Source: Candidatus Saccharimonadota bacterium (GTDB lineage Bacteria > Patescibacteriota > Saccharimonadia > Saccharimonadales > UBA4665). From it: 32,000 nucleotides of DNA. Location of the stretch: NCBI GenBank assembly GCA_016699935.1, contig CP064992.1, positions 120,001 to 152,000 on the forward strand. Direction: 5' to 3'. The notes beneath the pieces are model-generated. The model did no database searches. It had not been told where the DNA came from and worked only from the letters and a program-made list of their open reading frames with translations. Below, one piece after another: positions 442-17,951 of this stretch. Made by a program: the position numbers and the translations under genes. The stretch's first letter is position 1, and each line of letters opens with the position of its first letter.

Positions 442-1194
442 ATGAGACTACTTCTCGTCGAAGATGAACCAAAAATCGCCCGTGCTATCAAAATGGGTCT
501 GGAGCAAGAACGCTCTACGGTAGAGGTTTACCACGACGGTCCGAGCGGTCTTGCCGCAGCACTGGGAGATGACTACGACGCCATTATCCTCGACCGCATG
601 CTGCCCGGCGGCATGGACGGCCTCGAAATATGTGAAAAAATCCGTGAAAATAGCGTGAAAACACCGGTGCTCATGCTGACGGCTAAAGGACAAGTCCGCG
701 ACCGCGTCAATGGACTCAATGCCGGAGCCGATGACTACCTGGTCAAACCATTTTCGTTTGAGGAACTGCTCGCCCGCCTGCGCGCCCTGACTCGCCGACC
801 TCATGAGGTTAAAAGCACCATGCTCACTGCTGGCGACCTTAGCCTCGACCCTGTCACGTACGACGTCCGCCGCGCCGGCAAACCCATCGCCCTTTCCCAG
901 ACCGAATATTCACTGCTCGAGTACCTCCTGCGCAACAAAGACCGGGTCTTAAGCAAAGACAACATCATCAACCACGTCTGGGACTTTGATGCCGATATTT
1001 TGCCCAACACTGTCGAGGCATACATTGGCTATCTGCGTAATAAAATAGACAAACCGTATCCCAAAAGACCACGCATTCACACGGTGAGGGGCTTTGGCTA
1101 CAAACTAGGGAAATTGACCAAAAATGAAGCACTTATTTCACTCGGCCACCTTACGTCTGACGGCATGGTACACACTCATTCTCCTCCTCATTAG
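442..1194 (+). CDS. OmpR/PhoB-family response regulator (receiver + winged-helix)
   Basis: 250-aa ORF. Receiver motifs are LLVEDE, DAIILDRMLPGMDG and LMLTAKG. The winged-helix end is HTVRGFGYKLG. The last ~25 codons overlap the kinase start at 1124 and look like read-through of a lost or shifted stop. Confidence 0.9.
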   Translation: MRLLLVEDEPKIARAIKMGLEQERSTVEVYHDGPSGLAAALGDDYDAIILDRMLPGGMDGLEICEKIRENSVKTPVLMLTAKGQVRDRVNGLNAGADDYLVKPFSFEELLARLRALTRRPHEVKSTMLTAGDLSLDPVTYDVRRAGKPIALSQTEYSLLEYLLRNKDRVLSKDNIINHVWDFDADILPNTVEAYIGYLRNKIDKPYPKRPRIHTVRGFGYKLGKLTKNEALISLGHLTSDGMVHTHSPPH

Positions 1195-2118
1195 CCTACT
1201 TTTTAGTGTGATTGTTTTCAAATCGCAACTACCGAATTTCAGCGAGGTTTTGGCCCGGGCCATCTACAAAAACAGCAACTATTTACCGAGAGTGACTTGC
1301 TAGAAGAATGGCGAGAAGAACGGCTGAACAAAACCAAGTCGAATCTTGTCGGTCAACTGATGCTTTTAACGGAGTAGTTTTGGCATCGGGTGCTGTATGT
1401 AGTTACCTACTAGCCAGACGAACGCTACGACCTGTCGAGGAAGCTATGGAAGCACAGTCGCGGTTCAGTAGTGATGCTGCCCATGAACTGCGTACCCCAC
1501 TGACCATCATGCAGTCTGAAATAGAAGTCGGGTTGCGCGATAAAAAAGCAACCAAACAGTCACATAACGAGCTCCTAGCAAGTAGCCTCGACGAGGTGCA
1601 GCGCATGCGTACGCTAACAGATCGCTTGCTACTGCTGGCCAACAACCATGATATGACCCTCCTGCCGACTAATCTAGAAAATGCTGCTATCGAAGCCGTA
1701 AATCATGCCATACCCTTTGGCTCAGGCAAAAAGATTCGTATCGAGAATAGCGTAGGCACTTTGCAAGTTATCGGGAACGCTGATAGCCTCATTGATGTAC
1801 TAGTTATACTGCTAGACAATGCCGTCAAATACAGCCCGGCGAAGTCTACCATCACTCTTTCGGCTAGCGCTAAAGGGCAAACACGCCGAGATGCGAATAA
1901 CTGATAGCGGCGTGGGAATAGCCCCGTCTGATTTACCACATATTTTCGACCGTTTTTACCGGGCAGATGCTTCACGCAGCGCCCAAAACATCGCCGGGCA
2001 TGGCCTGGGCCTATCTATCGCCAAACAAATAGTCACCGCTCACCATGGCCATATCAGTGCGCGACCAAACCATTCTGGCAAAGGCACCACTTTTACCCTC
2101 ACCCTCCCTCTGGCGTGA
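1124..2118 (+). CDS. Sensor histidine kinase, frame-interrupted (at least 3 frame changes)
   Basis: ATG 1124 gives MKHLFHSATLRLTAWYTLILLLISLLFS (TM) up to TAG 1301. Then come frames with LLEEWREERLNKTKSNLVGQLMLL, the H-box SSDAAHELRTPLT (ORF 1308-1904), and the HATPase_c end RFYRAD...[13 protein letters not shown]...[11 protein letters not shown] (ORF 1819-2118). Confidence 0.85.
1996..2108 (+). repeat. Direct repeat copy 1 (3' end of the histidine kinase gene)
   Basis: 113 nt, 109/113 identical to 3673-3785 by my manual alignment. Confidence 0.9.
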
Positions 2119-2130
2119 TACAATCGACTT

Positions 2131-3522
2131 ATGGATAAACACAAAAAGCGCGTCGACGGCCTATCAGAGCAAGTCAACTCGTTTTACGAGCAAAAAAAGC
2201 CATTCAAAATCTATCATGGCAGTACTAACTCCACGCGAGTCCAAGTCTTCAAACGAAATGAAATGCTCGACACAAGTGGCTTAAATCATGTGCTAAAGAT
2301 TGATCAAGCTAAAATGACCGCCCTAATAGAGCCAAATGTCCCCATGGACAAACTAGTTAAGGCAACACTGAAGTACGGCCTCATCCCACCTGTAGTCATG
2401 GAGTTCCCTGGTATCACTGCGGGAGGCGGGGTTCAGGGGGGGGCGGGTGAAAGCAGCTCTTATAAATGGGGATGTTTTCATCAAATTTGTAATGAATATG
2501 AAATGGTCATCGGTGATGGTACAATCGTGACTTGCAACCCACAGGAAAATAGCGACCTGTTTTACGGAACGGCCGGTTCGTATGGAACACTCGGCGTTAT
2601 GACTGCTGTTGAATTACGTCTCATCCCGGCAAAAAAATATGTACAACTAACCTATTTTCCAGTCAAAAGCTTCGATGCGGCAGTTAACCGTATGCAAAAA
2701 GAAGTGGCCAATAAACCCGATTTTATCGATGGCATCATGTTCGCCCGTGACCGTGGCGTCATCATGGTCGGTAAACTTAGCAATGAAAAGAATGGCCAAC
2801 TGACACGATTTAGTCGAGCTCGTGACGAGTGGTTTTCCCTAGATGCTGATAAAGAATCTCGAGGTGATGTCTTTAACAAAACAATTCCACTCTCCGACTA
2901 CCTTTTCCGCTACGATCGAGGTGCTTTTTGGGTCGGAAAGTATGCCTTCAAAGTATTCAATATTCCTTTTACAAAATTTTGGCGAACATCGCTGAACTGG
3001 TTGCTGCATACACGCAAACTCTATGAAGCTCTTCAAGAAAGTGGTATATCCCAGCATCATGTAGTGCAGGACTTGGCTCTACCCGTAGAGACTGCGGTGG
3101 AATTCATGAGCTTCGTTGACGATAACCTTGGCATATACCCCTATGGCTCTGTCCCCTCAAAACAGATAAGTCGTCGCCCTTCATTTCAAGTAATTTACTT
3201 GCACCGCTTGTTATCAACGTAGGTGTATGGGGTGAGTTTATTCCTGATTATGATGATTTTTTAAGAATAAATCGTTCAATTGAAACAAACTTGACCCGTA
3301 TGGGAGGCAAAAGTGGTTTTATGCTCACGCATACTACCCAGAGGAAGAATTCTGGAAAATATATCCAAAGAACCAGTACAAACTCCTCCGTAAAAATACA
3401 AATCGTTCTACCAGCCATCTATATATGACAAAGTTCGCGTCACGGATCGCTTTACCGTCGATACACACCGCGGATTATGGCGTACCATGCTTCGTACTTC
3501 CCGGCTTAGGATTGAGCCATGA
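2131..3522 (+). CDS. DHCR24/DWF1-like FAD-binding oxidoreductase (PCMH-type), frame-interrupted near the 3' end
   Basis: ORF 2131-3222 contains GESSSYKWGCFHQICNEYEMVIGDGTIVTCNPQENSDLFYG...GTLGVMTAVELRLIPAKKYV and HHVVQDLALPV. These closely parallel delta24-sterol-reductase family motifs. The C-terminus (INVGVWGEF..., EEFWKIYPKNQYKLLRKKY, IYDKVRV...RLRIEP) continues in other frames to TGA 3520-3522. Confidence 0.8.
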
Positions 3523-3795
3523 CCTGGCAAATGTATATTGCCGTTGCCGTGTTGGGGCTTTCGGTGGCGATTCTACGTCAGCGTGTTATATTACATCATC
3601 ACCGGTCGACACTGCCAAACAATCAGCGGAGCAAATGATACCAAAAACAGGCTGTCAAAATGTTTTAGAAACGGGCATGGCCTGGGACTATCCATCGCTA
3701 AACAAATAGTCACCGCTCACCATGGCCATATCAGTGCGCGACCAAACCTTTCTGGCAAAGGCACCACTTTTACCCTCACCCTCCCCTCGCCTAAC
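3519..3795 (+). pseudogene. Histidine-kinase remnant: a short TM-like start fused to a duplicated HATPase_c tail (contains repeat copy 2, 3673-3785)
   Basis: ATG 3519 overlaps the upstream stop (ATGA) and encodes [22 protein letters not shown]. 3673-3785 encodes [38 protein letters not shown], nearly identical to the end of the kinase at 1124-2118. No H-box or the rest of the catalytic domain lies between them. Confidence 0.7.
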
Positions 3796-3847
3796 GCAGT
3801 TTTCCGTACCAGCCCGCATACTAGTTGCAGCATGCTATGATACCCGC

Positions 3848-4663
3848 ATGACAAAACCGGGTAAAAATGGCGCTTTACAGGAATCGAGCAAATCCCAGGC
3901 GGATGGCTGCTCGCTTTCGTCATCAAACTAGGCTGGGCAGCCATATTCGGCGGACTCATGCTGGGGGCAATTATTCTCACCAAGTATGTTGAGCTGCCGT
4001 TGTTCGCTCGTTATGACTGGCTCTTTCTGTTTGCGGTTTTCATACAGCTCGCGCTGGTAGCGACCAAGCTTGAGAAACCGCATGAAGTAGTAACTATCCT
4101 TGTTTTTCACTTTGTGGGCTTAGGTATGGAATTGTTTAAAACATCACCTGGCATTGGCTCGTGGGATTACCCGGAAGTTGCTGTGTTTAAGATTGCTACA
4201 GTGCCCCTGTATTCGGGGTTTATGTATGCCGCTGTCGGTAGTTTTATCGCCCGCGCTTGGCGGGTACTGAACCTTGAGTATCGCCCATACCCAAAACGCC
4301 TTTATACCATCCTGCTGGCGGTGGCAATTTTATCTGAACTTTTTCACGCACCACTACGCCTACGACATTCGCTGGCTGCTGTTCGGCGCAACGGTTATGC
4401 TATATGGTCGCACCTGGACCTACTACACAGTGCACACCGTCGAACGACGCATTCCGTTTATCGTCACCGCCTTTTTGTCGGCGTTTTTTGTGTGGGTGGC
4501 CGAAAATATCGGTACGTTCACTAAAAGCTGGCTGTATCCTAATCAGGCAAATGAATGGCAGCTTGTCTCCATACACAAACTCGGCGCTTGGCTCCTCCTC
4601 ATGCTGATTAGCTTCATCATGATTGACCTCCTCCACTACTGCCGTACCCGCCGCAAAACTTAA
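3848..4663 (+). CDS. DUF817-family integral membrane protein, frame-interrupted
   Basis: Joined from the ATG 3848 start plus ORFs 3958-4524 and 4274-4663. These are hydrophobic multi-TM sequences (GWAAIFGGLMLGAIILTKY..., FVWVAENIGTFTKSWLYPNQ). The first shift maps to the A5 run at 3863-3867. Confidence 0.7.
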
Positions 4664-4751: not shown

Positions 4752-4828
4752 GCGCCCTTAGCTCAGCGGATTAGAGCGTCTGTCTTCGGAACAGAAGGTC
4801 GTAGGTTCGAATCCTGCAGGGCGTACCA
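4752..4828 (+). tRNA. tRNA-Arg (anticodon UCG), CCA encoded
   Basis: Manual cloverleaf. Acceptor GCGCCCT/AGGGCGT (G1-U72). D arm GCTC-AGCGGATTA-GAGC. Anticodon arm TCTGT-CTTCGGA-ACAGA (TCG at 34-36). T arm GTAGG-TTCGAAT-CCTGC. Then A-CCA. Confidence 0.95.
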
Positions 4829-4937
4829 TGTAAGATGCTCACCGCAAGGTGGGCATTTTGCATGGTTCGTGCAGTAGATTTAAGCCGGAGACCTGACAGC
4901 GTAAGCTGTTAGAAGTCTTCGAATCCTGCAGGGCGTA
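4823..4937. repeat. Left direct repeat of the island (starts in the tRNA 3' end, ends in a second copy of the tRNA T-loop/acceptor 3' strand)
   Basis: About 115 nt matching 9185-9301, with 3 substitutions and one 2-nt indel. 4918-4941 repeats 4806-4829 (ttcgaatcctgcagggcgtaccat) exactly. It contains hairpins 4835-4856 and 4887-4920 (14 bp with a 2-nt bulge, GTAA loop). Confidence 0.9.
4835..4860 (+). terminator. Rho-independent terminator-like hairpin after tRNA-Arg
   Basis: atgctcacc-GCAA-ggtgggcat (9 bp including one G-U), followed by tttt. Confidence 0.6.
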
Positions 4938-5460
4938 CCATTTCCCAGTTTTTGATAATGCGATGACCGCTTCAAACGGTTCCTTAAGTGTAAATTGCAG
5001 TTTTCACCGTCTAAAGTAGCGCTCGAAAGTATGAAGTCGATAAGGTAGCGTTTTTGCTCTAGTTTCGTACACTCAATGTCAAATAGTTCAACAGCACGGC
5101 TACATACGTCCAGCAAGTAGCTAGCACCAATAACAAATGACTTATCACCCGCACTGTGGTCATGCAAGTCATCAAGTAATTCTTTCTGACGCTTTTCAAT
5201 CTTTTTGACCATACGTTCAAATATTTCATAGCGGGATTTGAATTGCTTGCAGTCTTTGAATAAGTGCTCTAGTTCCTCATATAGCACGTCGAATTTTTCT
5301 GTAGGCGTGTTTTAGTATCAGTATAACGTTCTTGTTCAATGGCACGGTTCTTTTCAATTTCAATTACTAGGCTAGGTATTAGTTTCGTAGGTAGCTGGAT
5401 TGACTTTCATAACTGACGTATCTGGTTAATCAGGGTTTCTTCGTCGAGCCATACGGCACT
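4880..5460 (-). pseudogene. C-terminal fragment of a large serine recombinase-like integrase (decayed)
   Basis: ORF 4880-5287 reads ...SYLLDVCSRAVELFDIECTKLEQKRYLIDFILSSATLDGENCNLHL. The upstream frame reads VWLDEETLINQIRQL-TGA-KSIQLPTKL...IEIEKNRAIEQERYTDTKTRLQK. From memory this resembles the coiled-coil and C-terminal region of large serine recombinases. There is an in-frame TGA at 5407-5409 and a frame change at an A5 run near 5290, and no N-terminal catalytic domain was found. The 3' end abuts the tRNA-derived core repeat. Confidence 0.45.
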
Positions 5461-5948
5461 AAAGATGAGCCCGGCCGCTTACGCTGCCCAGCTCAGACGG
5501 AGCCCAAAGAGAATAGAAAGAGTGTTGCAGAAAGTTAGAGGTTGACGTTAGTGATAGTTGTAAATTTTCGAGAATTTCGAGGTCTACTTACTACAAGTAT
5601 CTAAAGACCGAACCACTGTTCGCAGATAGCATGGTTACCACACAGGACAACGCTAACAAGGTAAGTTTTAATTTTCGTACATATCCCTAGCTCAACTACT
5701 TTCCGTGTACATGATTTCACTAGAAGTGGTGTCAGATAAATGGCGTTAAAGGGTCAAAATCTGGGGAAAATTATATACAACGATGCTCATGACAAGAATT
5801 AGCATTTAGATGAATGGGTTTTATTTGCCTCTAGAAGATCGGAGAGGGGTCTAAATAGCGTTCCACGGCAGGAGTTGATAATGTTCTCATTACCTCTGTT
5901 CAAAGTAAAAGATTAGTCGATATTACTGTAGTATTATATACAATGTAC

Positions 5949-5977
5949 TTTACATAATGTGTGACATTGTGTAATAT
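5949..5977 (+). promoter_or_regulatory. Sigma70-like promoter upstream of the structured RNA and rsr operon
   Basis: TTTACA (5949-5954), 17-nt spacer, TAATAT (5972-5977). Predicted start is near 5984-5986. Confidence 0.5.
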
Positions 5978-5986
5978 AGCGTTGGG

Positions 5987-6047
5987 TAGTGAGAGATTGG
6001 ACTTCTTCGTTCTGAAAGCAAAAGCCGATCTCGCCTTTCTCCCACTA
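5987..6047 (+). other. Structured leader domain A (long-range stem)
   Basis: 5987-5996 (tagtgagaga) pairs with 6038-6047 (tctcccacta): 9 of 10 positions, with one A/C mismatch. Confidence 0.4.
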
Positions 6048-6050
6048 GTT

Positions 6051-6190
6051 CGTTAACAATGTTAGGACACAGTGATGATAGAACTTCCTCGTCTGTTAAA
6101 CGAGTGTTGGCCTTTTGGCCACACTGCTCTTGAGCCATTGCGGCTCAAGGGTTTGTTCTCTCAAGGTTTCTTGTCCTAACATTGTCAACG
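6051..6190 (+). ncRNA. Candidate Y-RNA-like structured RNA (long closing helix plus four-way junction) immediately upstream of rsr
   Basis: Closing helix 6051-6069/6172-6190: 18 Watson-Crick pairs and one A55/C86 mismatch. Internal loop, then stem 6076-6084/6155-6163 (8 of 9). This encloses three hairpins: 6088-6104 (5 bp, 7-nt loop ctgttaa), 6105-6123 (7 bp with a bulge, tttt loop), and 6127-6151 (10 bp including one G-U, 5-nt loop). Strand is uncertain (see findings). Confidence 0.55.
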
Positions 6191-6230
6191 AAAGTGGAGC
6201 TGCCCTCTAATTAATTTACACGGAGGAGTT

Positions 6231-7654
6231 ATGTCTCTTTTCAACAAATCAACTAAATCTAATGTTACTAACTTGGCTGGCGGTAGTGCTTATAAGCAGT
6301 CGCCTGAGAACACCTTAGTATCCATACTTTTAACCAACTTCTTAAAGAATCAGACTTACCGTTCCGGCACTGATGAACTGAAGTCGTTAAAAGATACAAT
6401 AGCGCAGAACGATCCATTGTTTGCAGCTAAAGCAGGTGTGTACGCTCGTAATGAGTTTGGAATGAGGTCCGTAAGTCATGTGCTTGCAGGTGAGCTTGCT
6501 CATATTGTTAAGGGCGAGGCATGGTCTAAGCAGTTCTACGATAAGGTAGTACATCGTCCTGATGACATTACCGAAATTGTTGCTTACTACATGCAAGAGT
6601 ATGGCAAGCCATTACCTAATTCACTTAAAAGGGCTTAGCAAAGTCTTTCGATAAGTTTGATGCCTATCAGCTTGCTAAATATCGAGGCAAGACCAATAAG
6701 ATTTCACTTGTTGACGTTGTCAATTTGGTTCGACCGCGACCAAGCGAGAAAAATAGCGATGCCCTCAAAGCTCTGGTTAATGACGAGTTACGTTCTGAGA
6801 ACACTTGGGAAGCGCGGATTTCTGCTGCTGGTCAAGATACTGAAAAGCGTCGCCTGGTATGGAAAGACCTGCTTGAGACAAACAAATTAGGTTACTTTGC
6901 CTTACTACGCAACCTGCGTAACATCATGACCGATGCACCAGACATGGTAGCTCTAGTGTGCGAGCAGCTGGTAGATGAAAAGCGAATTAAAGGCTCACTC
7001 GTTTTACCTTTCCGCTTTACTTCAGCCATTAAGGAAATCTCTCAGATACCTGAGTCACGCGACGTTATTTCTGCTCTATCTAAGGCTGTCGATATTTCAG
7101 CTCAGAATTGTCCAGAGTTGGACGGCTCAACACTAATTGCTGTAGATACGTCAGGCTCGATGTCTGGTCGTCCATCAGAAATTGCAACTTTGTTTGCAGC
7201 CATGCTGTATAAGAAGAATAGTAAAGCAGACCTGCTACTATTCGACACAGAGTCGCATCCTCTGACACCTAACCCTAACGACTCAGTGATGTCAATTGCA
7301 CAGTCGATGCCATTCCACGGTGGCGGTACAGATTTCAACATCATCTTCGACTACGCACAGAAAGCCTACGATCGAATCATCATACTATCAGACATGCAAG
7401 CATGGTCTGATCAGGGTATGTATGGTTGGTCACAAGGTGGTGGCAATCCTAAGGCTGCATTAGCTGCTTACCGTGACCGTACGGGAGCCGAACCTAAAAT
7501 CTACTCGTTTGATTTACAGGGTTACGGTACGCTTGAGTTTCCTGAGAAGAATGTCTACAGCCTTGCTGGATTTTCTGATAAGGTATTCGACCTCATCAAA
7601 ATTCTCGAAACTGGTAAGAGTATGGTTGACGTTATCAACCAAGTGGAGCTTTAA
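6231..7654 (+). CDS. rsr: Ro60-related protein (TROVE domain plus vWA/MIDAS), single frame interruption
   Basis: ORFs 6231-6638 and 6725-7654 join as ...PLPNSLK / KGLAKSFDKFDAYQLAKYRGKTNKISLVDVVNLVRPRP across the A4/G3 run at 6625-6632. TROVE-like N-terminus: NLAGGSAYK, DPLFAAKAGVYARNEFGMR. vWA MIDAS: LIAVDTSGSMSG. RBS ggagg at 6221-6225. Confidence 0.9.
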
Positions 7655-7657
7655 GTC

Positions 7658-7891
7658 ATGAAGCGAGTGACATTCTATTTAGATGACGATGAATATCGAC
7701 AACTGAAGATCGTACTCGCTATTCATGGCATGAGTGCAAGTGAATGGCTACGTCATGAAATATCACGATATGTTCGTGGTTCAATGCCAAACCTACCCGT
7801 TGATCAACTAGCACGAATGCCACGCATACCCAAAAAACAAAATCGCCCTGTTAAGCCTGATGACTTTGACGAAGACGTTGATTTACAATAG
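7658..7891 (+). CDS. Ribbon-helix-helix (CopG/Arc-like) small DNA-binding protein
   Basis: 77 aa. KRVTFYLDDDEYRQLKIVLAIHGMSASEWLRHEISRYV fits the beta-strand/helix/helix pattern. It starts 3 nt after the rsr stop and ends 19 nt before the rtcB ATG. Confidence 0.7.
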   Translation: MKRVTFYLDDDEYRQLKIVLAIHGMSASEWLRHEISRYVRGSMPNLPVDQLARMPRIPKKQNRPVKPDDFDEDVDLQ

Positions 7892-7910
7892 AACTTGAGG
7901 ATAAATTAAT

Positions 7911-9083
7911 ATGAAGAAAATCACAAAGAAACTATACAACTGGGCTTCTATAATTGACGAAGCCACTAGAGAACAAGCAGAACGAACATCAAAAATGCCG
8001 TTCGTGCTGCCACATCTAGCTTTGATGCCAGACGCACACATGGGAGCTGGTGCAACGGTTGGTTCAGTTATCCCTACAGTCGGTGCGATTATGCCAGCAG
8101 CAGTTGGTGTAGATATTGGCTGTGGAATGATTGCAGTCAAAACACAATTCACTACTAAGGACGTTGGCGATAAAGAATTGTCTGTTTTAAGACACAGTAT
8201 CGAACGCTCTATTCCACTATCGGCCGGTAAGTTTAACGATGCCCTAACGGATTCAGTCAAGCCACGTATTGCTAAGCTAGAAAAAATGGCTGGTAAGCGA
8301 AAAAGCTTCTATGACGGTCTGACCCGTACGAGCTGGACCTTACAATTAGGAACGCTTGGTTCGGGTAATCATTTTATTGAAGTAACAGTGGACGAAGACG
8401 AAACAATATGGCTGTTCTTACACAGTGGTAGTCGTGGTATCGGTAACTCTATTGCCACACACCACATTAAGATAGCTCAAGAATGCATGAAGAAGTGGTA
8501 CATCAATCTTGAAGATGAAGATTTAGCATATTTGGTTGAGGGAACACCAGAGTTTGACCAATACATATTTGACCTTAATTGGGCACAGCACTTCGCACTC
8601 TTGAATCGTGAAGAGATGATGGACAGAGTGGTTAAAGACTTCGAACATTTTATTGGTTCAAAAGTTGTTGAAAAGGAACGTATAAATTGCCATCACAATT
8701 TCACGCAAAAAGAGAATCACATGGGTCGCAAGGTATGGCTGAGTCGAAAAGGTGCTATACAAGCCGATATAGGTCGTAAAGGTTTAATTCCTGGCTCGAT
8801 GGGTACGGCAAGCTATGTTGTTGAGGGTAAGGGCTATGCACCGTCTTATAACTCCGCCCCGCATGGCGCAGGACGTGTTTGGGCTAGACGAGCCGCATCA
8901 AATCACTTTACGATTGAAGACCTAGATAAAGCTATGGTTGGTATCGAATACAATCGATCCGAGGCATTTTTAGATGAAATACCTGCTGCCTATAAGGATA
9001 TTGATGTGGTGATTGAAGACGCTAAAGAGTTAGTTAAGGTCAAGCACACATTCCATCAGATTGTGAATGTTAAAGGCGACTAA
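7911..9083 (+). CDS. rtcB: RNA 3'-phosphate ligase RtcB
   Basis: 390 aa with RtcB hallmark motifs: PDAHMGAGATVGSV, GSGNHFIE, HSGSRGIG, CHHNF, PGSMGTASY, APHGAGR. RBS gagga sits upstream. Confidence 0.95.
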   Translation: MKKITKKLYNWASIIDEATREQAERTSKMPFVLPHLALMPDAHMGAGATVGSVIPTVGAIMPAAVGVDIGCGMIAVKTQFTTKDVGDKELSVLRHSIERSIPLSAGKFNDALTDSVKPRIAKLEKMAGKRKSFYDGLTRTSWTLQLGTLGSGNHFIEVTVDEDETIWLFLHSGSRGIGNSIATHHIKIAQECMKKWYINLEDEDLAYLVEGTPEFDQYIFDLNWAQHFALLNREEMMDRVVKDFEHFIGSKVVEKERINCHHNFTQKENHMGRKVWLSRKGAIQADIGRKGLIPGSMGTASYVVEGKGYAPSYNSAPHGAGRVWARRAASNHFTIEDLDKAMVGIEYNRSEAFLDEIPAAYKDIDVVIEDAKELVKVKHTFHQIVNVKGD

Positions 9084-9184
9084 AAATCATCAAACATTAT
9101 TGGTATACGTGGTGGTTGGCTTTTTAATAGAGCGATTGAACTATTATAAGCGAGAAACAGTGACCTAACCTGCTCTATAATGCT

Positions 9185-9301
9185 GTACCATGTAAGATGC
9201 TCACCGCAAGGTGGGCATTTTGCATGGTTCGTGCAAGGTAGATTTAAGCCGGAGACCTGACAGCGTAAGCTGTTAGCATTCTTCGAATCCTGCCGGGCGT
9301 A
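9185..9301. repeat. Right direct repeat of the island (diverged third copy of the tRNA 3' end at its end)
   Basis: Matches 4823-4937. It ends ...cttcgaatcctgcCgggcgtaGG, compared with ...cctgcagggcgtacca in the tRNA. Confidence 0.9.
9197..9221 (+). terminator. Terminator-like hairpin within the right repeat (likely ends the rsr-RHH-rtcB transcript)
   Basis: Same atgctcacc-GCAA-ggtgggcat hairpin followed by tttt. No other hairpin was seen between the rtcB stop and this point. Confidence 0.55.
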
Positions 9302-9340
9302 GGTATTATCCACAGGTTTTCCACACCATATAATGCTCGT

Positions 9341-9473
9341 GCTTGCAATGGTTTGTGAGCCGGAGTAGACTAGTAAATACCATCGTTGAGGTGGTCACGG
9401 CCGCAAGGCAGTGTGCGGCAACCAGCAATGGGAACCGCATGAAAAAAGTCCGTCGCAAGACGGACTTTTCATT
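9341..9473 (+). ncRNA. Candidate small RNA (promoter-to-terminator unit), unknown family
   Basis: TATAAT at 9329-9334, with a weak -35 ttatcc at 9306-9311. About 130 nt then run to a strong terminator at 9442-9473. Internal stems include gccgca/tgcggc. The only ORF (9343-9525) reads through two terminators. Confidence 0.3.
9442..9473. terminator. Bidirectional rho-independent terminator
   Basis: aaaagtccgtc-GCAA-gacggactttt, with an A-run before and a T-run after. Confidence 0.8.
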
Positions 9474-9482
9474 TATCAATAG

Positions 9483-10058: not shown

Positions 10059-10570
10059 TCACAATCGGCTGTGGGCATACACTTCAAATGTGTAGTTTGG
10101 CTCCCCAGTTTTCGGTTTGCCAGGTTCACTTGATAGTAGTTGAAAATCCTGCAGGCGTTGCATAGGATAGAATTTGTCGCAGTCGTAGTTGGCATGAATC
10201 CGCGTGATGTATATCTCATCTGGCTCAACATCATCGTGAATACTGCCGTTCCATACATTTTTGCCGGCTGCTGCCATATCTGCTAGAAAATCTTTCAGCG
10301 AATGGACGATAGTAACGCCCGCTTCATCTGGTAAATCATGGGATGTCAGCACATACAGGTGCCTCCCAGCTGGAGGCCAAGCACTCTGACCTTCACGTTC
10401 CTGAAGCCCTTTTTCATTGCCTGGTACGTACCCCGGCCAATTAGCAGGTTTCCGCCAAAACGCCTGCTCTGTTCGTGAAAGTACGCTAAATCTTCCGGAA
10501 TAAACCATGGTGTCATGCCGTCCTTCGCCATACCACCCATCTCGTCAACAGCCACGATGTCTCGTATCAT
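10059..10570 (-). CDS. folA: Dihydrofolate reductase-like protein, frame-interrupted
   Basis: ORF 10346-10570 reads MIRDIVAVDEMGGMAKDGMTPWFIPEDLAYF...LLIGRGTY. ORF 10059-10508 reads GRHLYVLTS...DEIYITRIHANYDCDKFYP. Order and motifs fit the DHFR fold. Confidence 0.7.
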
Positions 10571-11836
10571 CGCAATTCCTGGTTCGCTTCCCTTAGTTGG
10601 GCGATCAGGAAAAACGAACCGGTAATAACGCCGACATTCTGAACTTGCTTCATGAAAACTGCATAAGCCTCGTCTTGATTAGCAACTAGGCGACATTTCA
10701 CCCCATTTGCCTTTAGTACGCTGACGATTTCACTTGGATCCATGGAAACGATGGGTAAATCCTGCGTTTTCGAGAATGTAGTCACTATTACTTCATCAGC
10801 ATGCTTTGCAAGCAAGGGTGCGATGTCTGCTATTTCTTTCCCCTGTTTGAGAGCGAATAAAACAACCGGGCGTACACCTTTATGTAGTTCGGCAAAACTT
10901 TGCCAAAAAGCCGTCATTTTCTGGCCATTATGCGCCCCCGTCCATAATGACAGTTTTACCTTCTATCGAGCGTATGTCCATCCGTCCTGGCACGTGCACT
11001 GCTTGCGTTTTTGCAACTGTGTCGCATTTAACACTTTTAAATCATCGCGACGAGCTAGCCATTTGTAAGCAGCGTAAGCTAGCAGCCAGTTGCGTTTCTG
11101 GTAATCAGGCATGCCGGCTGGGAATTCACCGCCGTAGGCTTTGGCCAGTCTATCCTGATCAAACGTTAGCAAGTCGGCTCCTTCTTGTTGGCTAACCCAG
11201 AAACGAACCACCTGCATATTCTCTGAGTCTTGAGAGTACATGAGCGCCGTGTTGCCCTCGTGGATAATACCGGCTTTTGGTAAGCTATTTTGCCCAGCGT
11301 GTCGCCAAGCGCTTCCATATGATCATAGCCAATGTCGGTTATGACGCACAGTTTATCAGCGCGCGCCGCTACATTTGTGCTGTCATCTAGCCCGCCCATG
11401 CCGGTCTCGATGACTGCGTAGTCCACATTTTCTTGCTTGAAGACCCAGTAGGCAAAAGCAATCAGCACTTCGAAGCGGCTGGGGTCTCGGGCGTACCTGC
11501 CAGTAACTGTGTGAACTCTTCAAAATATTTGCAGAACTGTTCTTCTGACAAAGGCACACTGTTTATCTGTATGCGCTCATTCATACTGTCGATGTATGGC
11601 GAAATGGTTGACCCGACCTTGCAGCCAGCTGCCGTGAGTAGTGCCGATATATAGTAGGTTGTCGATGTTTTGCCGCTCGTACCAGCTATGTGTACTACCC
11701 GAAGCGCCTTTTCGGGGTGGCCGATATGCGCCATCAGCCGCTCTGTCCGCCCGAGGGTGATGTGCTTGCCGACAGTATGTTTTGATACTGCATCATAGGG
11801 GCGCAGCGCCTTTTCAACCTCAGCAATAGTAGTCAT
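10567..11836 (-). CDS. folC: Folylpolyglutamate synthase/dihydrofolate synthase (Mur-ligase family), fragmented into 4 ORFs
   Basis: Start MTTIAEVEKAL at 11836. P-loop HIAGTSGKTSTT. VIETGMGGLDDSTNV. ITDIGYDHMEALGDTLGKIA. C-terminal ORF 10567-10917. The pieces are 11462-11836, 11166-11468, 10963-11241 and 10567-10917. Confidence 0.8.
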
Positions 11837-11892
11837 TTTCACCCCACTACCATACCACACCTCTGTTAAACGTGCTATAATCCACCTGGTAA

Positions 11893-11969
11893 GCGCGCGT
11901 AGCTCAGCTGGATAGAGCGTTGGTTTCCGGTACCAAAGGTCGGGGTTCAAATCCCTTCGCGCGTACCAT
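11893..11969 (+). tRNA. tRNA-Arg (anticodon CCG), CCA encoded
   Basis: Acceptor GCGCGCG/CGCGCGT (G1-U72). D arm GCTC-AGCTGGATA-GAGC. Anticodon arm TTGGT-TTCCGGT-ACCAA (CCG). T-loop TTCAAAT. Then A-CCA. Confidence 0.9.
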
Positions 11970-16304: not shown

Positions 16305-17951
16305 TTAGGGCTTCACCTTATTCCGCAGTGGTCGAAGATATTGGCGCAGAATAACTGCCTTCTTTTCGCCAACCACTTTGGCGAGCTCCCAGTCACGTGC
16401 CTGCATAACACCGCGCATACTGCCGAAAGTTTTGAGCAGTTTTTTGCGTGTAGCTGGGCCGATGGTGGGAATATCGTCTAGCAGGCTAGCTGTTTGCTGT
16501 TTCACCTTCAGTGTCGAATGGTAGCTTACGGCAAAACGATGCGACTCATCGCGGATGCGCTGTAATAGTTTAACAAGATTAGTATTGTGCGGTAGGTTCA
16601 CCAAAATGAAATCATCTGTCTCAGTCGTGTAACCCCCTAGCTTATGCAGCATCTCCGTGTTAAGAGTCACATTTGATCCGGCACTGTCATCTTGAGCGGA
16701 GGGAACCAAAGCCGAAAGATCCTTTCTAGGTACTAAAGAAGATTCTTCGACTTCGCTCAGAATGACCCGATCCGAAATCAGTGATTTCTTTATAACTATC
16801 TGCTCCTCCCTTTTAGCCAGCCCAATCATCCGCAGCTTGCTCAAGGACAGTCCTTGAGCACCAAGTCTGATAGAGATTTCGTTGCGGGCGCGGATGGCGG
16901 CGTCTAGCTGCCCTTTGCCGCCGTCTATCAGTAGAAGATCGGGCATACCCCAAGCCTTAATATTTTTCTCGCTCAAGCGACGAGTTATGGTTTCGTTCAT
17001 ATTGTAGAAGTCATCGTTTTGCTGGCGCGACATTTTGAATTTGCGGTATTGCCCCTTGTCGCTCACTCCATTGGTGAAAACGACCATACTCGCAACTACA
17101 TTAGTACCCTGCATATGTGATATGTCAAAACCCTCTATACGGCGTGGATATTTTTCTAAGCCGAGTAAATCTACCAGTTCGGTGAGTGCGTGATCTTTGG
17201 AAATATCCAGGAACTCTTTGTCGCTGAAAATGACCTGTTTGCCAAGGTTCTGGAGTGCGAGCATTTGGTTTCGCAACTTCTGCTGCGAGCTCAAAATTTT
17301 GCGATTTGCTCGCAATTTTCATTTCTTTTTCCACCTGGCGAATAATCTTATCACGCTTGCCTTCGATGACGGCAATGAGCTTACGCAAATTTGCCCGATA
17401 CTCCGACAGATTCGTCTTGCCCTCCTCTAACCCGGGGTCTAGACCAAGATGATAATACAAGCTAACGCGTTTTTGCCCAGTTGGCTTGGAATAGGCAAAT
17501 GGAAAGATACGCCGCAGGAGCTTCAGTGCTTGACGCACACTAAAGGTGCTAAAGTACGGTCCATAGTAGCGCGCACCATCGTCGAGCGGCCGTCGCGTAG
17601 TACTCACCGTGGGGTATTCGCTGTCATAATCTATGCGTATGTAGTAGCTCATGGCTTTATCGTCGCGAAGCAAGATGTTGTAGCGCGGCATGTAGCGACG
17701 AATCATTTCAGCCTCAAGAAAAAGTGCCTCGAGCTCGCTCTCCACTTCCATCCAGTCGGTGTCTGCTATCTCGGCAACCAGTGCTTCTGTTTTGGGATCG
17801 CGCCCCGGCTCGCCTGAAAATACTGCCGCACCCGATTCCGCAGCACTGCCGCCTTCCCCACATAAATAATCTCTCCCGCCACATCCTTATGAAAATACAC
17901 CCCCGGGGTTTTGGGTAGAGTCTTTAGTTTATTTATGAGTATGGTTTTCAC
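16305..17951 (-). CDS. uvrC: Excinuclease ABC subunit C, frame-interrupted, with in-frame palindromic insertions
   Basis: GIY-YIG N-terminus: [33 protein letters not shown] (ORF 17766-18020). Middle part: ORF 17125-17751. C-terminal nuclease/HhH: [52 protein letters not shown] (ORF 16305-17315). Confidence 0.9.
16686..16766. repeat. 81-nt inverted-repeat-bounded hairpin module inside the uvrC ORF
   Basis: gtcatcttgagcg (16686-16698) pairs with cgctcagaatgac (16754-16766): 11 WC pairs, 1 G-U, 1 mismatch. Inner hairpin gaaag-atc-ctttc (16714-16726). Translated in-frame as ...[31 protein letters not shown]... Confidence 0.6.
16840..16860. repeat. 21-nt perfect palindrome inside the uvrC ORF, sharing its core with the hairpin at 31043-31084
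   Basis: gctcaagga-cag-tccttgagc. The 16-nt string ggacagtccttgagca recurs at 31059-31074. Confidence 0.7.

What the first reader, a model, noticed from the sequence alone, without database searches (positions are those of the whole stretch)
4752..9301. tRNA-Arg(UCG)-anchored 4.4-kb island with ~115-nt direct repeats and three copies of the tRNA 3' end
The 24 nt ttcgaatcctgcagggcgtaccat (T-loop to CCA plus 1) occur in the tRNA (4806-4829) and again at 4918-4941. A diverged copy ends at 9301. The whole segment 4823-4937 is repeated at 9185-9301 with only 3 substitutions and one 2-nt indel, and all differences cluster in the 3' third. Each repeat carries a terminator-like GCAA hairpin and a 14-bp GTAA hairpin. 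A recombinase-like gene fragment abuts the left junction. This is the signature of site-specific integration into a tRNA 3' end, possibly two successive events. The cargo is an RNA-repair module.
Basis: partly seen in the sequence, partly recalled or inferred. Interest (0 to 1): 0.75.

Follow-up and report, generated by a model that had tools for sequence, protein, structure and literature searches.

The report
Decayed serine-recombinase island at tRNA-Arg
A Saccharibacteria (TM7) chromosome carries the worn-out remains of a mobile element that used a large serine recombinase to insert an RNA-repair gene set (Rsr, a Y-RNA-like RNA, RtcB) next to a tRNA-Arg gene, and it landed in a pre-existing array of tRNA-tail copies that turns out to be common, and unexplained, in these bacteria.

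Summary
The window holds tRNA-Arg(UCG), an exact second copy of its last 24 nt 112 nt downstream, a degraded third copy, and a 115/117-nt direct repeat that brackets 4.2 kb.

- **Recombinase.** The fragment is the C-terminal ~180 aa of a large serine recombinase (LSR), not a tyrosine integrase. It is frameshifted and lacks its catalytic domain. Its clade habitually sits antisense against tRNA 3' ends.
- **Crossover core.** The core is only GTACCAT (discriminator base, CCA and T).
- **The 115-nt repeat.** It is not made by integration. The unit of tRNA tail plus ~88-nt two-hairpin spacer already stands, often in tandem, at the empty site in related species. Similar units follow 18 of 88 tRNAs examined. 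The element entered the second attB-like copy.
- **The same island elsewhere.** An 88%-identical island lies in another TM7 population with the same two element ends but different flanks and no long repeat.

The cargo is rsr, a conserved Y-RNA-like structure, a small ORF and rtcB. The island itself is an ordinary kind of thing: a new member of a known kind. The tRNA-tail/hairpin arrays are the unexplained part. Interest is moderate.

The parts
4752..4828 (+). tRNA-Arg(UCG), CCA encoded. Its last 24 nt plus T form copy T1 (4806-4829).
4823..4829 (+). attB-type occurrence of the 7-nt core GTACCAT (tRNA end followed by spacer X)
   Evidence: alignment A2
4825..4866 (+). Hairpin H1. ACCA plus an A-rich run pairs with a U-rich run plus UGGU around a GC stem with a GCAA loop. 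It looks like the tRNA's terminator.
   Evidence: 19 pairs, 8 with compensatory changes across 8 units
4869..4931 (+). Hairpin H2. A degenerate inverted copy of the T-loop/T-stem pairs with the 5' part of T2, capped by an inner 8+6-bp hairpin with a GTAA loop.
   Evidence: the same fold in 7 of 7 units from 5 species; z = -5.9 here
4918..4941 (+). T2, an exact second copy of the tRNA 3' end. Its last 7 nt (4935-4941) are the attL-type core, joined to the element's left end TTCCCAG...
4942..5460 (-). Remnant of a large serine recombinase gene: only the post-zinc-ribbon coiled-coil/C-terminal ~180 aa, with at least 2 frameshifts. The reading frame runs on through T2 into X (…KTGKWYALQDSK…).
5461..5927 (.). 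AT-rich stretch with no ORF and no homologue. 5054-5795 is deleted in the L091 copy of the island.
5949..6200 (+). Promoter-like site (5949-5977), a small conserved hairpin (5988-6050) and a ~150-nt Y-RNA-like structure (6040-6200). The structure has a ~30-bp terminal stem and a three-hairpin distal domain.
   Evidence: (I1); no Rfam match
6231..7654 (+). rsr (Ro60 orthologue: TROVE + vWA), split by a 1-nt loss in a G run near 6630. Intact 474-aa relatives exist at 96% identity.
7658..7891 (+). 77-aa ORF with a weak ribbon-helix-helix/NikA-like match, conserved between rsr and the ligase gene in L091 and L096
7911..9083 (+). rtcB RNA ligase
   Evidence: (E = 8e-116)
9084..9184 (+). Right end of the element (P-arm side). 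It is not alignable with the conserved P arm of L086/L091 apart from CTGCTC-TA-AAT. It ends in TATAATGCT.
9185..9191 (+). attR-type core GTACCAT
9192..9301 (+). Right copy of spacer X (H1 + H2) and T3 (9282-9301). T3 keeps the ancestral C (CCTGCCGGGCG) seen in the tRNAs of L005/L007/L008.

Best explanation
The segment 4942-9184 is the fossil of an integrative element that used a large serine recombinase (LSR). The element belongs to a clade whose recombinase gene lies antisense against a tRNA gene, with the reading frame running across the attachment site. The conserved Trp codon TGG is the reverse complement of CCA.

How the insertion worked. The crossover core is GTACCAT, made of the discriminator A, CCA and one more T. 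The element's attP (…TATAATGCT|GTACCAT|TTCCCAG…) recombined with a chromosomal site made of a tRNA-Arg 3'-end sequence followed by the H1 terminator hairpin.

Where it landed. In this genome that site was not the tRNA itself. It was a second, identical copy one 112-nt unit downstream. The chromosome already carried an array tRNA - X - T - X - T3, of the kind seen at empty sites in related species. The two X copies had most likely arisen shortly before by unequal exchange or slippage between tail copies. Insertion therefore left tRNA - X - T2 | LSR … rsr - orf77 - rtcB | GTACCAT - X - T3, which explains the 115-nt repeat.

State today. The element carried a promoter, a Y-RNA-like RNA, rsr, a small ORF and rtcB. 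It has since lost the catalytic half of its recombinase and cannot move on its own.

What is shown: the anatomy, the homologies, the common core, the empty sites, and the same island elsewhere.
What is inferred: the order of events, the crossover position within GTACCAT, and the origin of the duplicated X.
For: 1. LSR identity.
- The window fragment has 61-79% identical relatives, and one carries PF07508.
- A profile search finds ~500-aa relatives with Resolvase + Recombinase + zinc ribbon.
- 34 of 67 full-length relatives end in W…(D/E)SN, which is an antisense tRNA tail.
- Two intact relatives abut tRNA-Asn genes in antisense.

2. Same junction elsewhere. tRNA-Arg(UCG)…GTACCA|TTTCCCAG + LSR remnant is found in L084, L085 and L086.

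3. Common core. GTACCAT is the only sequence shared by T1|X, T2|LSR and right-end|X.

4. Canonical layout in L086: tRNA | LSR … 3.4 kb … P arm | GTACCA - H1 - X - T - X - T.

5. The same island in L091-L095, at 88% DNA identity over 5796-9083.
- It is bounded on the left by T2|TTCCCAG.
- It is bounded ~90 nt after rtcB by a P arm like L086's, then GTACCA + H1.
- Its flanks and spacers differ from the window's.

6. Empty sites with pre-existing tail-spacer units in L005, L007 and L008.

7. Composition. The island has lower GC, 0.424 against 0.487 and 0.46 in the flanks.

8. Age of the copies. T3 keeps the ancestral C, whereas the tRNA and T2 share the derived A. That A is compensated by U7 in the acceptor stem.

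9. Precedent. Serine-integrase elements give 2-21-bp repeats and swap the 3' end of the integrase gene on integration (PMC4701971).
Against: - No intact copy of this exact Arg-specific LSR was found, and no circular or attP junction in IMG/VR.
- The window's right end does not align with the P arm shared by L086 and L091. The attR assignment therefore rests on the repeat boundary and the core alone.
- No same-species genome with the empty site, or with a two-unit array, was available. The pre-insertion state is inferred from other species.
- In both genomes that carry this island it sits after T1 - X - T2 rather than at the tRNA. The model treats that as coincidence or as free choice between equivalent sites.
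- The window has many split ORFs, which look like long-read indel errors. Frameshift-based 'pseudogene' calls are therefore soft, although the 5' truncation of the LSR does not depend on them.
Confidence: 0.72

Rival explanations
1. Classical reading. The element's attP carried the whole ~115-nt segment, and integration itself generated the 115-nt attL/attR repeats, perhaps in two rounds.
For: The repeats bracket the island exactly and are 97% identical. Long att identities are known for tyrosine-integrase islands (general knowledge).
Against: - The same island in L091 has unrelated sequences at the two corresponding positions.
- LSR copies at real tRNAs join directly at GTACCA|TTTCCCAG with no X.
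- The X - T unit exists at empty sites.
- The recombinase is a serine enzyme, and these use short cores.
Confidence: 0.08
2. Acquisition or relocation by homologous recombination rather than by the recombinase. An example is natural transformation, or re-insertion of a circle excised by exchange between tail copies. The 115-nt X - T segment would serve as the homology, and the crossover would fall in the identical first 51 nt.
For: - All differences between the repeats lie 3' of position 51, and T2 is fully tRNA-like while T3 is ancestral. That is the pattern expected from a single crossover between an incoming X - T and the resident X - T3.
- The island occurs in two different contexts.
Against: - It needs a donor that already had X (this lineage's own spacer) next to the island.
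- The clean GTACCAT boundary at the right end, together with the canonical LSR left junction, is explained more simply by site-specific recombination.
Confidence: 0.15
3. The tRNA-tail/spacer units are not passive targets. They would be functional structured RNAs, or miniature non-autonomous elements that recombinases mobilise, and the island would be incidental to them. This is not exclusive of the best explanation.
For: - 18 of 88 tRNAs have such a unit downstream, against 0 of 88 in three controls.
- Both hairpins are kept by compensatory changes and carry GNRA loops.
- Spacer families with conserved motifs recur behind different tRNAs and species.
- One array holds mixed tail identities, Ser and Arg.
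- The proximal copies match their own tRNA exactly.
Against: - There are no expression data and no Rfam family.
- No copy occurs in viral contigs.
- Hairpin conservation could equally reflect terminator function and DNA-level palindromes.
- Serial integration scars are the known source of partial tRNAs.
Confidence: 0.3
4. Assembly artefact: a collapsed or duplicated repeat in an error-prone long-read assembly.
For: Many ORFs in the window are split by frameshifts.
Against: - The copies differ at 3 substitutions and a 2-nt indel that is not in a homopolymer.
- Each copy has a different unique flank.
- The layout matches independent assemblies of related loci.
Confidence: 0.03

Closest known systems
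Large serine recombinase (serine integrase) integrative elements, e.g. streptococcal ICEs in rumA (PMC4701971) and phage integrases of the phiC31/Bxb1 type
   Same: Relatives have Resolvase + Recombinase + zinc-ribbon + coiled-coil architecture. The common core is short. The recombinase gene sits at the element's edge, and its 3' end is exchanged on integration.
   Different: The target is the extreme 3' end (discriminator-CCA) of tRNA genes or of their copies, whereas serine integrases usually target protein-coding genes. The window copy is only a C-terminal fragment. The host is a CPR/Saccharibacteria genome.
Tycheposons and tRNA-anchored islands of Prochlorococcus (bioRxiv 10.1101/2020.12.28.424599)
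   Same: A streamlined genome with cargo islands next to tRNAs, several partial tRNA copies, fragmented integrases and variable cargo at one hotspot. A minority of tycheposons (27 of 937) use an LSR.
   Different: No replication or helicase module is present here. The partial tRNAs are regularly spaced (~112 or ~150 nt) with conserved two-hairpin spacers rather than element remnants. The island sits distal to a unit, not proximal as the 'push' model predicts.
Rsr/Y RNA/RtcB RNA-repair operons (Salmonella, Deinococcus; Y RNAs that mimic tRNA; from general knowledge)
   Same: rsr (TROVE + vWA) is linked to rtcB, and a highly structured RNA with a long terminal stem lies immediately upstream.
   Different: There is no RtcR/sigma-54 regulator. 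The RNA matches no Rfam Y RNA or YrlA model. A conserved 77-aa ORF lies between rsr and the ligase gene. In L096 rtcB is replaced by a Pnkp-like kinase/phosphatase/ligase. The module rides on a mobile element.
CIME / accretion of elements at duplicated att sites (ICESt1/3 system; from general knowledge)
   Same: There are several att-like copies in tandem, and a recombinase-less element is bounded by att sites that could be mobilised in trans.
   Different: The internal units are ~90-150 nt and structured, not decayed elements. The recombinase is a serine enzyme, not a tyrosine one.

Membership tests
tRNA-anchored integrated genomic island | tRNA gene at one boundary and a copy of its 3' end at the other | tested here: met
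tRNA-anchored integrated genomic island | Recombinase gene next to an att junction | tested here: met
   Present as a remnant only, at 4942-5460 on the minus strand
tRNA-anchored integrated genomic island | Empty site in relatives | tested here: met
   Met in other species: L005, L007 and L008 have tRNA-Arg(UCG) to hsp20 without the island. No same-species genome was available.
tRNA-anchored integrated genomic island | Excised circular form or attP junction | tested here: not met
   No attP-type junction in IMG/VR. Reads cannot be tested here.
Large serine recombinase | N-terminal resolvase catalytic domain with the nucleophilic serine | tested here: not met
   Absent from the window copy. Present in full-length relatives. 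The window gene is a fragment of a family member, not a functional member.
Large serine recombinase | Recombinase domain (PF07508) and zinc ribbon | tested here: not met
   Homology in the window starts after the zinc ribbon. Homologues P0003 and P0144-P0154 have both domains.
Large serine recombinase | C-terminal coiled-coil region homologous to bona fide LSRs | tested here: met
   profile hits to residues ~240-510 of ~500-aa LSRs, E down to 1e-63
Large serine recombinase att sites | Short common core shared by attB, attL and attR. The attP half-site is offset ~5 bp from the attB half-site (the offset rule is recalled from the literature). | tested here: inconclusive
   The core GTACCAT is shared. 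In L086 the P half-site ATCGGGT+AGGTG+GTACCA resembles a tRNA tail with a 5-nt insertion. In the window the offset is 6 nt and the similarity is weak.
Rsr/Y RNA/RtcB RNA-repair module | Rsr with TROVE and vWA domains | tested here: met
   There is one frameshift near 6630, and an intact relative at 96% identity.
Rsr/Y RNA/RtcB RNA-repair module | RtcB ligase | tested here: met
   388 bits
Rsr/Y RNA/RtcB RNA-repair module | Adjacent Y RNA (long terminal stem that binds Ro, plus a second module) | tested here: inconclusive
   The structure at 6040-6200 has z = -8.3 and 11 compensatory pairs in 3 sequences. There is no Rfam match, and Ro binding cannot be tested here.
Tycheposon | Site-specific integrase plus a replication/helicase or PICI-like module, at Prochlorococcus island tRNAs | tested here: not met
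   No replication genes lie in 4942-9184. The resemblance is in island dynamics only.

The most novel reading that the evidence does not exclude
The regularly spaced units of tRNA 3' end plus two hairpins are a previously undescribed family. They follow about one tRNA in five in these Saccharibacteria loci. They are kept by compensatory changes, carry GNRA loops, contain an inverted copy of the T arm, and fall into spacer families shared between different tRNAs. They could be structured RNAs that mimic or sequester tRNA tails. Alternatively they could be miniature att-bearing cassettes that multiply attB sites and steer a tRNA-tail-specific clade of serine recombinases away from the functional tRNA and its terminator.
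Probability: 0.25. Interest if true: 0.7.

Novelty: new member of a known kind. Interest (0 to 1): 0.5.

Why it matters
- Saccharibacteria have tiny genomes and few recognised mobile elements. This locus shows one concrete route of gene gain: serine-recombinase elements aimed at the CCA end of tRNAs, here delivering an Rsr/Y-RNA/RtcB RNA-repair kit.
- It also shows that the tRNA-Arg(UCG)-hsp20 interval is a hotspot that holds different cargo in different species.
- The recombinase clade, with its built-in tRNA-tail read-through, offers ready-made integrase/attB pairs for genetics in organisms that are hard to manipulate.
- The tail-plus-hairpin arrays are a separate puzzle worth a dedicated survey.

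Tried and rejected
- **Pfam, PHROG and phage tblastn on ORF 4880-5287.** These gave nothing. Only the large protein search revealed the LSR relationship.
- **Exact-protein look-ups** of hsp20, rtcB and P0001 found no record.
- **Spacer X in species-representative genomes and IMG/VR.** No match. So X is not a widely dispersed repeat at that stringency, but the window's own species is also not represented.
- **Metagenome scan for the X/T junction.** It only re-found the L005 species.
- **Viral scans.** Scans for LSR relatives, attP junctions and the long-spacer motif were empty. The one hit, L090, was a chance match inside an unrelated ORF.
- **X + T2 as a tRNA-like gene.** Rejected: there is no 5' T-stem strand and no acceptor partner, and ARAGORN and Rfam do not call it.
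- **The island's right end (9120-9184) as a decayed tRNA copy.** Rejected: ~49% identity is not above chance.
- **Viral RtcB loci L079-L083.** They carry rtcB but not rsr, so they say nothing about the island.
- **Shared ancestry of the LSR truncation.** I could not decide whether it predates the split of the window and L091 copies, because L091's 743-bp deletion covers the breakpoint.
Full report
**1.

ARAGORN and Rfam place tRNA-Arg(UCG) at 4752-4828. Its last 24 nt plus one, TTCGAATCCTGCAGGGCGTACCAT, recur exactly at 4918-4941. A 79% copy lies at 9282-9305.

Segment 4823-4937 is repeated at 9185-9301. The first 51 nt are identical, then comes a 2-nt indel, then 64 nt with three substitutions. 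A 22-mer from the repeat occurs only at these two places in the window, with none expected by chance.

Each copy folds into two hairpins.
- H1 (4825-4866) pairs the tRNA's ACCA and an A-rich run with a U-rich run plus UGGU, around a GC stem with a GCAA loop.
- H2 (4869-4931) has an inner GTAA-capped stem.

**2. Organism and data quality**

The closest hsp20 relatives are Saccharibacteria (TM7) MAGs, and the best is 96% identical. The 135-aa ORF at the left junction corresponds to NCBI protein IPL68_00765, which lies on a 1.23-Mb Ca. Saccharibacteria contig.

Many genes in the window are split: DUF817, a histidine kinase, folC-like and uvrC. The rsr break is a single base lost from a G run. Much of this is probably long-read indel error, so I do not lean on frameshifts.

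**3. Cargo**

- 6231-7654 is rsr, with TROVE and Ro60-type vWA domains.
- 7658-7891 is a 77-aa ORF with a weak ribbon-helix-helix match.
- 7911-9083 is rtcB.
- Upstream, 6040-6200 folds into a ~30-bp terminal stem with a three-hairpin distal domain (-73 kcal/mol, z = -8.3). The fold is kept in two diverged relatives, with 11 compensatory pairs. This is the Y-RNA layout expected next to rsr, but no Rfam model matches it, so it stays a candidate.
- A promoter-like site lies at 5949-5977.

**4. The recombinase fragment**

ORF 4880-5287 has no Pfam, PHROG or phage match. A large-database search found 22 relatives at 56-89% identity.
- P0003 carries PF07508 (Recombinase) and weak zinc-ribbon matches.
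- A profile of the relatives retrieves ~500-aa proteins with Resolvase + Recombinase + zinc ribbon.

The window therefore retains only the region after the zinc ribbon, about 180 aa. DNA homology to L084 and L085 runs over 4942-5460. The fragment has at least two frameshifts and no catalytic domain.

The relatives' C-termini read …KTGKWYARQDSNLRP…, which is the antisense translation of a tRNA 3' end. In the window the true frame reads …KTGKWYALQDSK… through T2. Of 67 full-length clade members, 34 end in W…(D/E)SN. Two intact ones lie antisense against tRNA-Asn genes. This is a clade of serine integrases specialised on tRNA tails.

**5. The attachment sites**

In L084, L085 and L086 the LSR remnant joins a genuine tRNA-Arg(UCG) at …GTACCA|TTTCCCAG…. 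The same junction follows T2 in the window.

I aligned three kinds of junction: attB-type (T1|X), attL-type (T2|LSR, plus the three tRNA|LSR junctions) and attR-type (right end|X). The only shared sequence is GTACCAT.

L086 shows the canonical layout: tRNA | LSR … 3.4 kb … P arm | GTACCA - H1 - spacer - T - spacer - T. The L086 P half-site (ATCGGGT-AGGTG-GTACCA) looks like a tRNA tail with five extra bases. That recalls the 5-bp attP/attB offset of serine integrases. I cite this rule from memory, and the window's own right end fits it poorly.

**6. The same island elsewhere**

Rsr relatives at 96% identity lie on Logan contigs L091-L095. DNA identity to the window is 88% over 5796-9083.
- On the left the island begins T2|TTTCCCAG with only ~110 nt of LSR. 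A 743-bp deletion relative to the window is flanked by microhomology.
- About 90 nt after rtcB it ends in a P arm like L086's, then GTACCA and an H1 hairpin.

So rsr-orf77-rtcB is bounded by both ends of the LSR element in an independent genome. There the flanks differ (a 2'-5' RNA ligase family gene, EamA and others downstream), and the sequences left and right of the island are unrelated. The long direct repeat is therefore peculiar to the window.

In L096-L098 a related rsr-orf77 is followed by a Pnkp-like kinase/phosphatase/ligase instead of rtcB, in yet another context.

**7. The repeat unit pre-exists**

The order tRNA-Arg(CCG) … hsp20 … tRNA-Arg(UCG) is conserved in relatives. The hsp20-tRNA gap varies from ~290 bp to 4.7 kb and holds different cargo without integrases:

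| Locus | Content of the gap |
|---|---|
| L001, L011 | membrane proteins |
| L003 | phosphatase/HIT |
| L002 | serpin |
| L004 | GIY-YIG |

Units at sites that lack the island:
- L007 reads tRNA - spacer - T - spacer - T at a ~112-nt period.
- L008 is similar.
- L005 has one unit.

Across all fetched loci, 18 of 88 tRNAs have a copy of their last 16 nt (3 or fewer mismatches) within 260 nt downstream. The count is 0 of 88 upstream, 0 of 88 for the 5' end and 0 of 88 for the reverse complement. The tRNAs involved are Arg, Lys, Met, Gly, Ser, Asn and Gln.

**8. Anatomy of the unit**

- H1 is kept by compensatory change: 8 of 19 pairs across 8 units.
- The spacer contains a degenerate inverted copy of the T arm (e.g. 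GATTTGAACCTACGAC). This pairs with the T-loop part of the next tail copy around an inner GNRA-capped hairpin. The same fold appears in 7 of 7 units.
- A longer spacer class (125-170 nt) shares motifs behind Arg, Ser and Gln tRNAs in different species (…AGTGAGCGnAGCGAACG…GCACAGAAGCTTGCTTCGAGCATGG…).
- One array mixes Ser- and Arg-type tails.
- No Rfam family matches the units, and they are absent from IMG/VR.

I cannot say what these units are. The candidates are integration scars, miniature att cassettes or structured RNAs.

**9. Most likely history (inference)**

- The lineage had tRNA - X - T3, as in L005. T3 keeps the ancestral C, whereas the tRNA and T2 share a derived A that is compensated by U7.
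- Unequal exchange between tail copies gave tRNA - X - T - X - T3, with two identical attB-like sites (tail + H1).
- The LSR element inserted at the GTACCAT of the middle copy.
- The recombinase then decayed.

A rival is that the island entered by homologous recombination through X - T. That fits the clustering of differences 3' of position 51 and cannot be excluded.

**10. Comparison with known systems**

The closest known systems are these.
- Serine-integrase elements, which have short repeats and exchange the 3' end of the integrase gene on integration (PMC4701971).
- The tRNA-anchored, partial-tRNA-littered islands built by tycheposons in Prochlorococcus.
- Rsr/Y RNA/RtcB operons.

Full-text searches found no description of such elements or arrays in Saccharibacteria.

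**11. Verdict**

This is a real but ordinary kind of feature: a decayed integrative island. It has an unusual recombinase/target pairing for a CPR genome. The interesting side finding is the structured tRNA-tail arrays.

Noticed in passing
window 9330-9478 (+); L001 9990-10140, L011 2200-2345, L004 2960-3095, L009 10380-10510 (all -): A conserved ~120-150-nt element lies between the tail array and hsp20. It has a -10-like ATAAAATGCT box, an invariant ACCATCGTTGAGGTGGTC, several hairpins with GNRA/UUCG loops and a terminator. It is a candidate small RNA with no Rfam match. Its 5' part resembles spacer X.
   Followed up: partly
window 6040-6200 and 5988-6050 (+): A Y-RNA-like structure and a smaller conserved hairpin lie upstream of rsr. 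Both are conserved in L091 and L096 with compensatory changes, and no Rfam model matches them.
   Followed up: partly
loci L002-L011, L025, L039, L040, L048, L053, L069, L073, L086, L093: About one tRNA in five is followed by one to three units of 'terminator hairpin including CCA - inverted T-arm copy - hairpin - exact copy of the tRNA tail'. There are two size classes, and spacer motifs are shared between different tRNAs. L093 has an array that mixes Ser- and Arg-type tails.
   Followed up: partly
proteins P0144-P0286; L099, L100: In a large clade of ~500-aa serine recombinases the C-terminal residues are encoded by the antisense strand of a tRNA 3' end (W = TGG = CCA, then …DSN…). Integration therefore rewrites the enzyme's tail.
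   Followed up: partly
window 442-4663, 10059-11950, 16305-17751: Many housekeeping genes are split into adjacent ORFs: OmpR-type regulator/histidine kinase, DUF817, folC-like Mur ligase and uvrC. This pattern looks like indel errors of a long-read assembly rather than true pseudogenes.
   Followed up: no
L096 10806-12860; L098 5355-7109: In a related rsr-orf77 module, rtcB is replaced by a 584-684-aa protein with AAA_33 kinase, metallophosphatase and T4-type RNA ligase domains (Pnkp-like). So the repair enzyme has been swapped behind the same Rsr.
   Followed up: no
one search hit list (L016, L024-L027, L031, L034, L044-L047, L050, L054, L059-L066, L074): The Saccharibacteria hsp20 is 55-72% identical to hsp20 of Microbacteriaceae and other Actinomycetota, the usual hosts of these epibionts. 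This hints at host-epibiont gene exchange, or at mis-binned contigs.
   Followed up: no
L087 (+773 and +1788 downstream of tRNA-Phe): An LSR homologue sits at tRNA-Phe, followed by two similar P-arm|GCACCA|terminator junctions about 1 kb apart. This suggests two elements in tandem.
   Followed up: no
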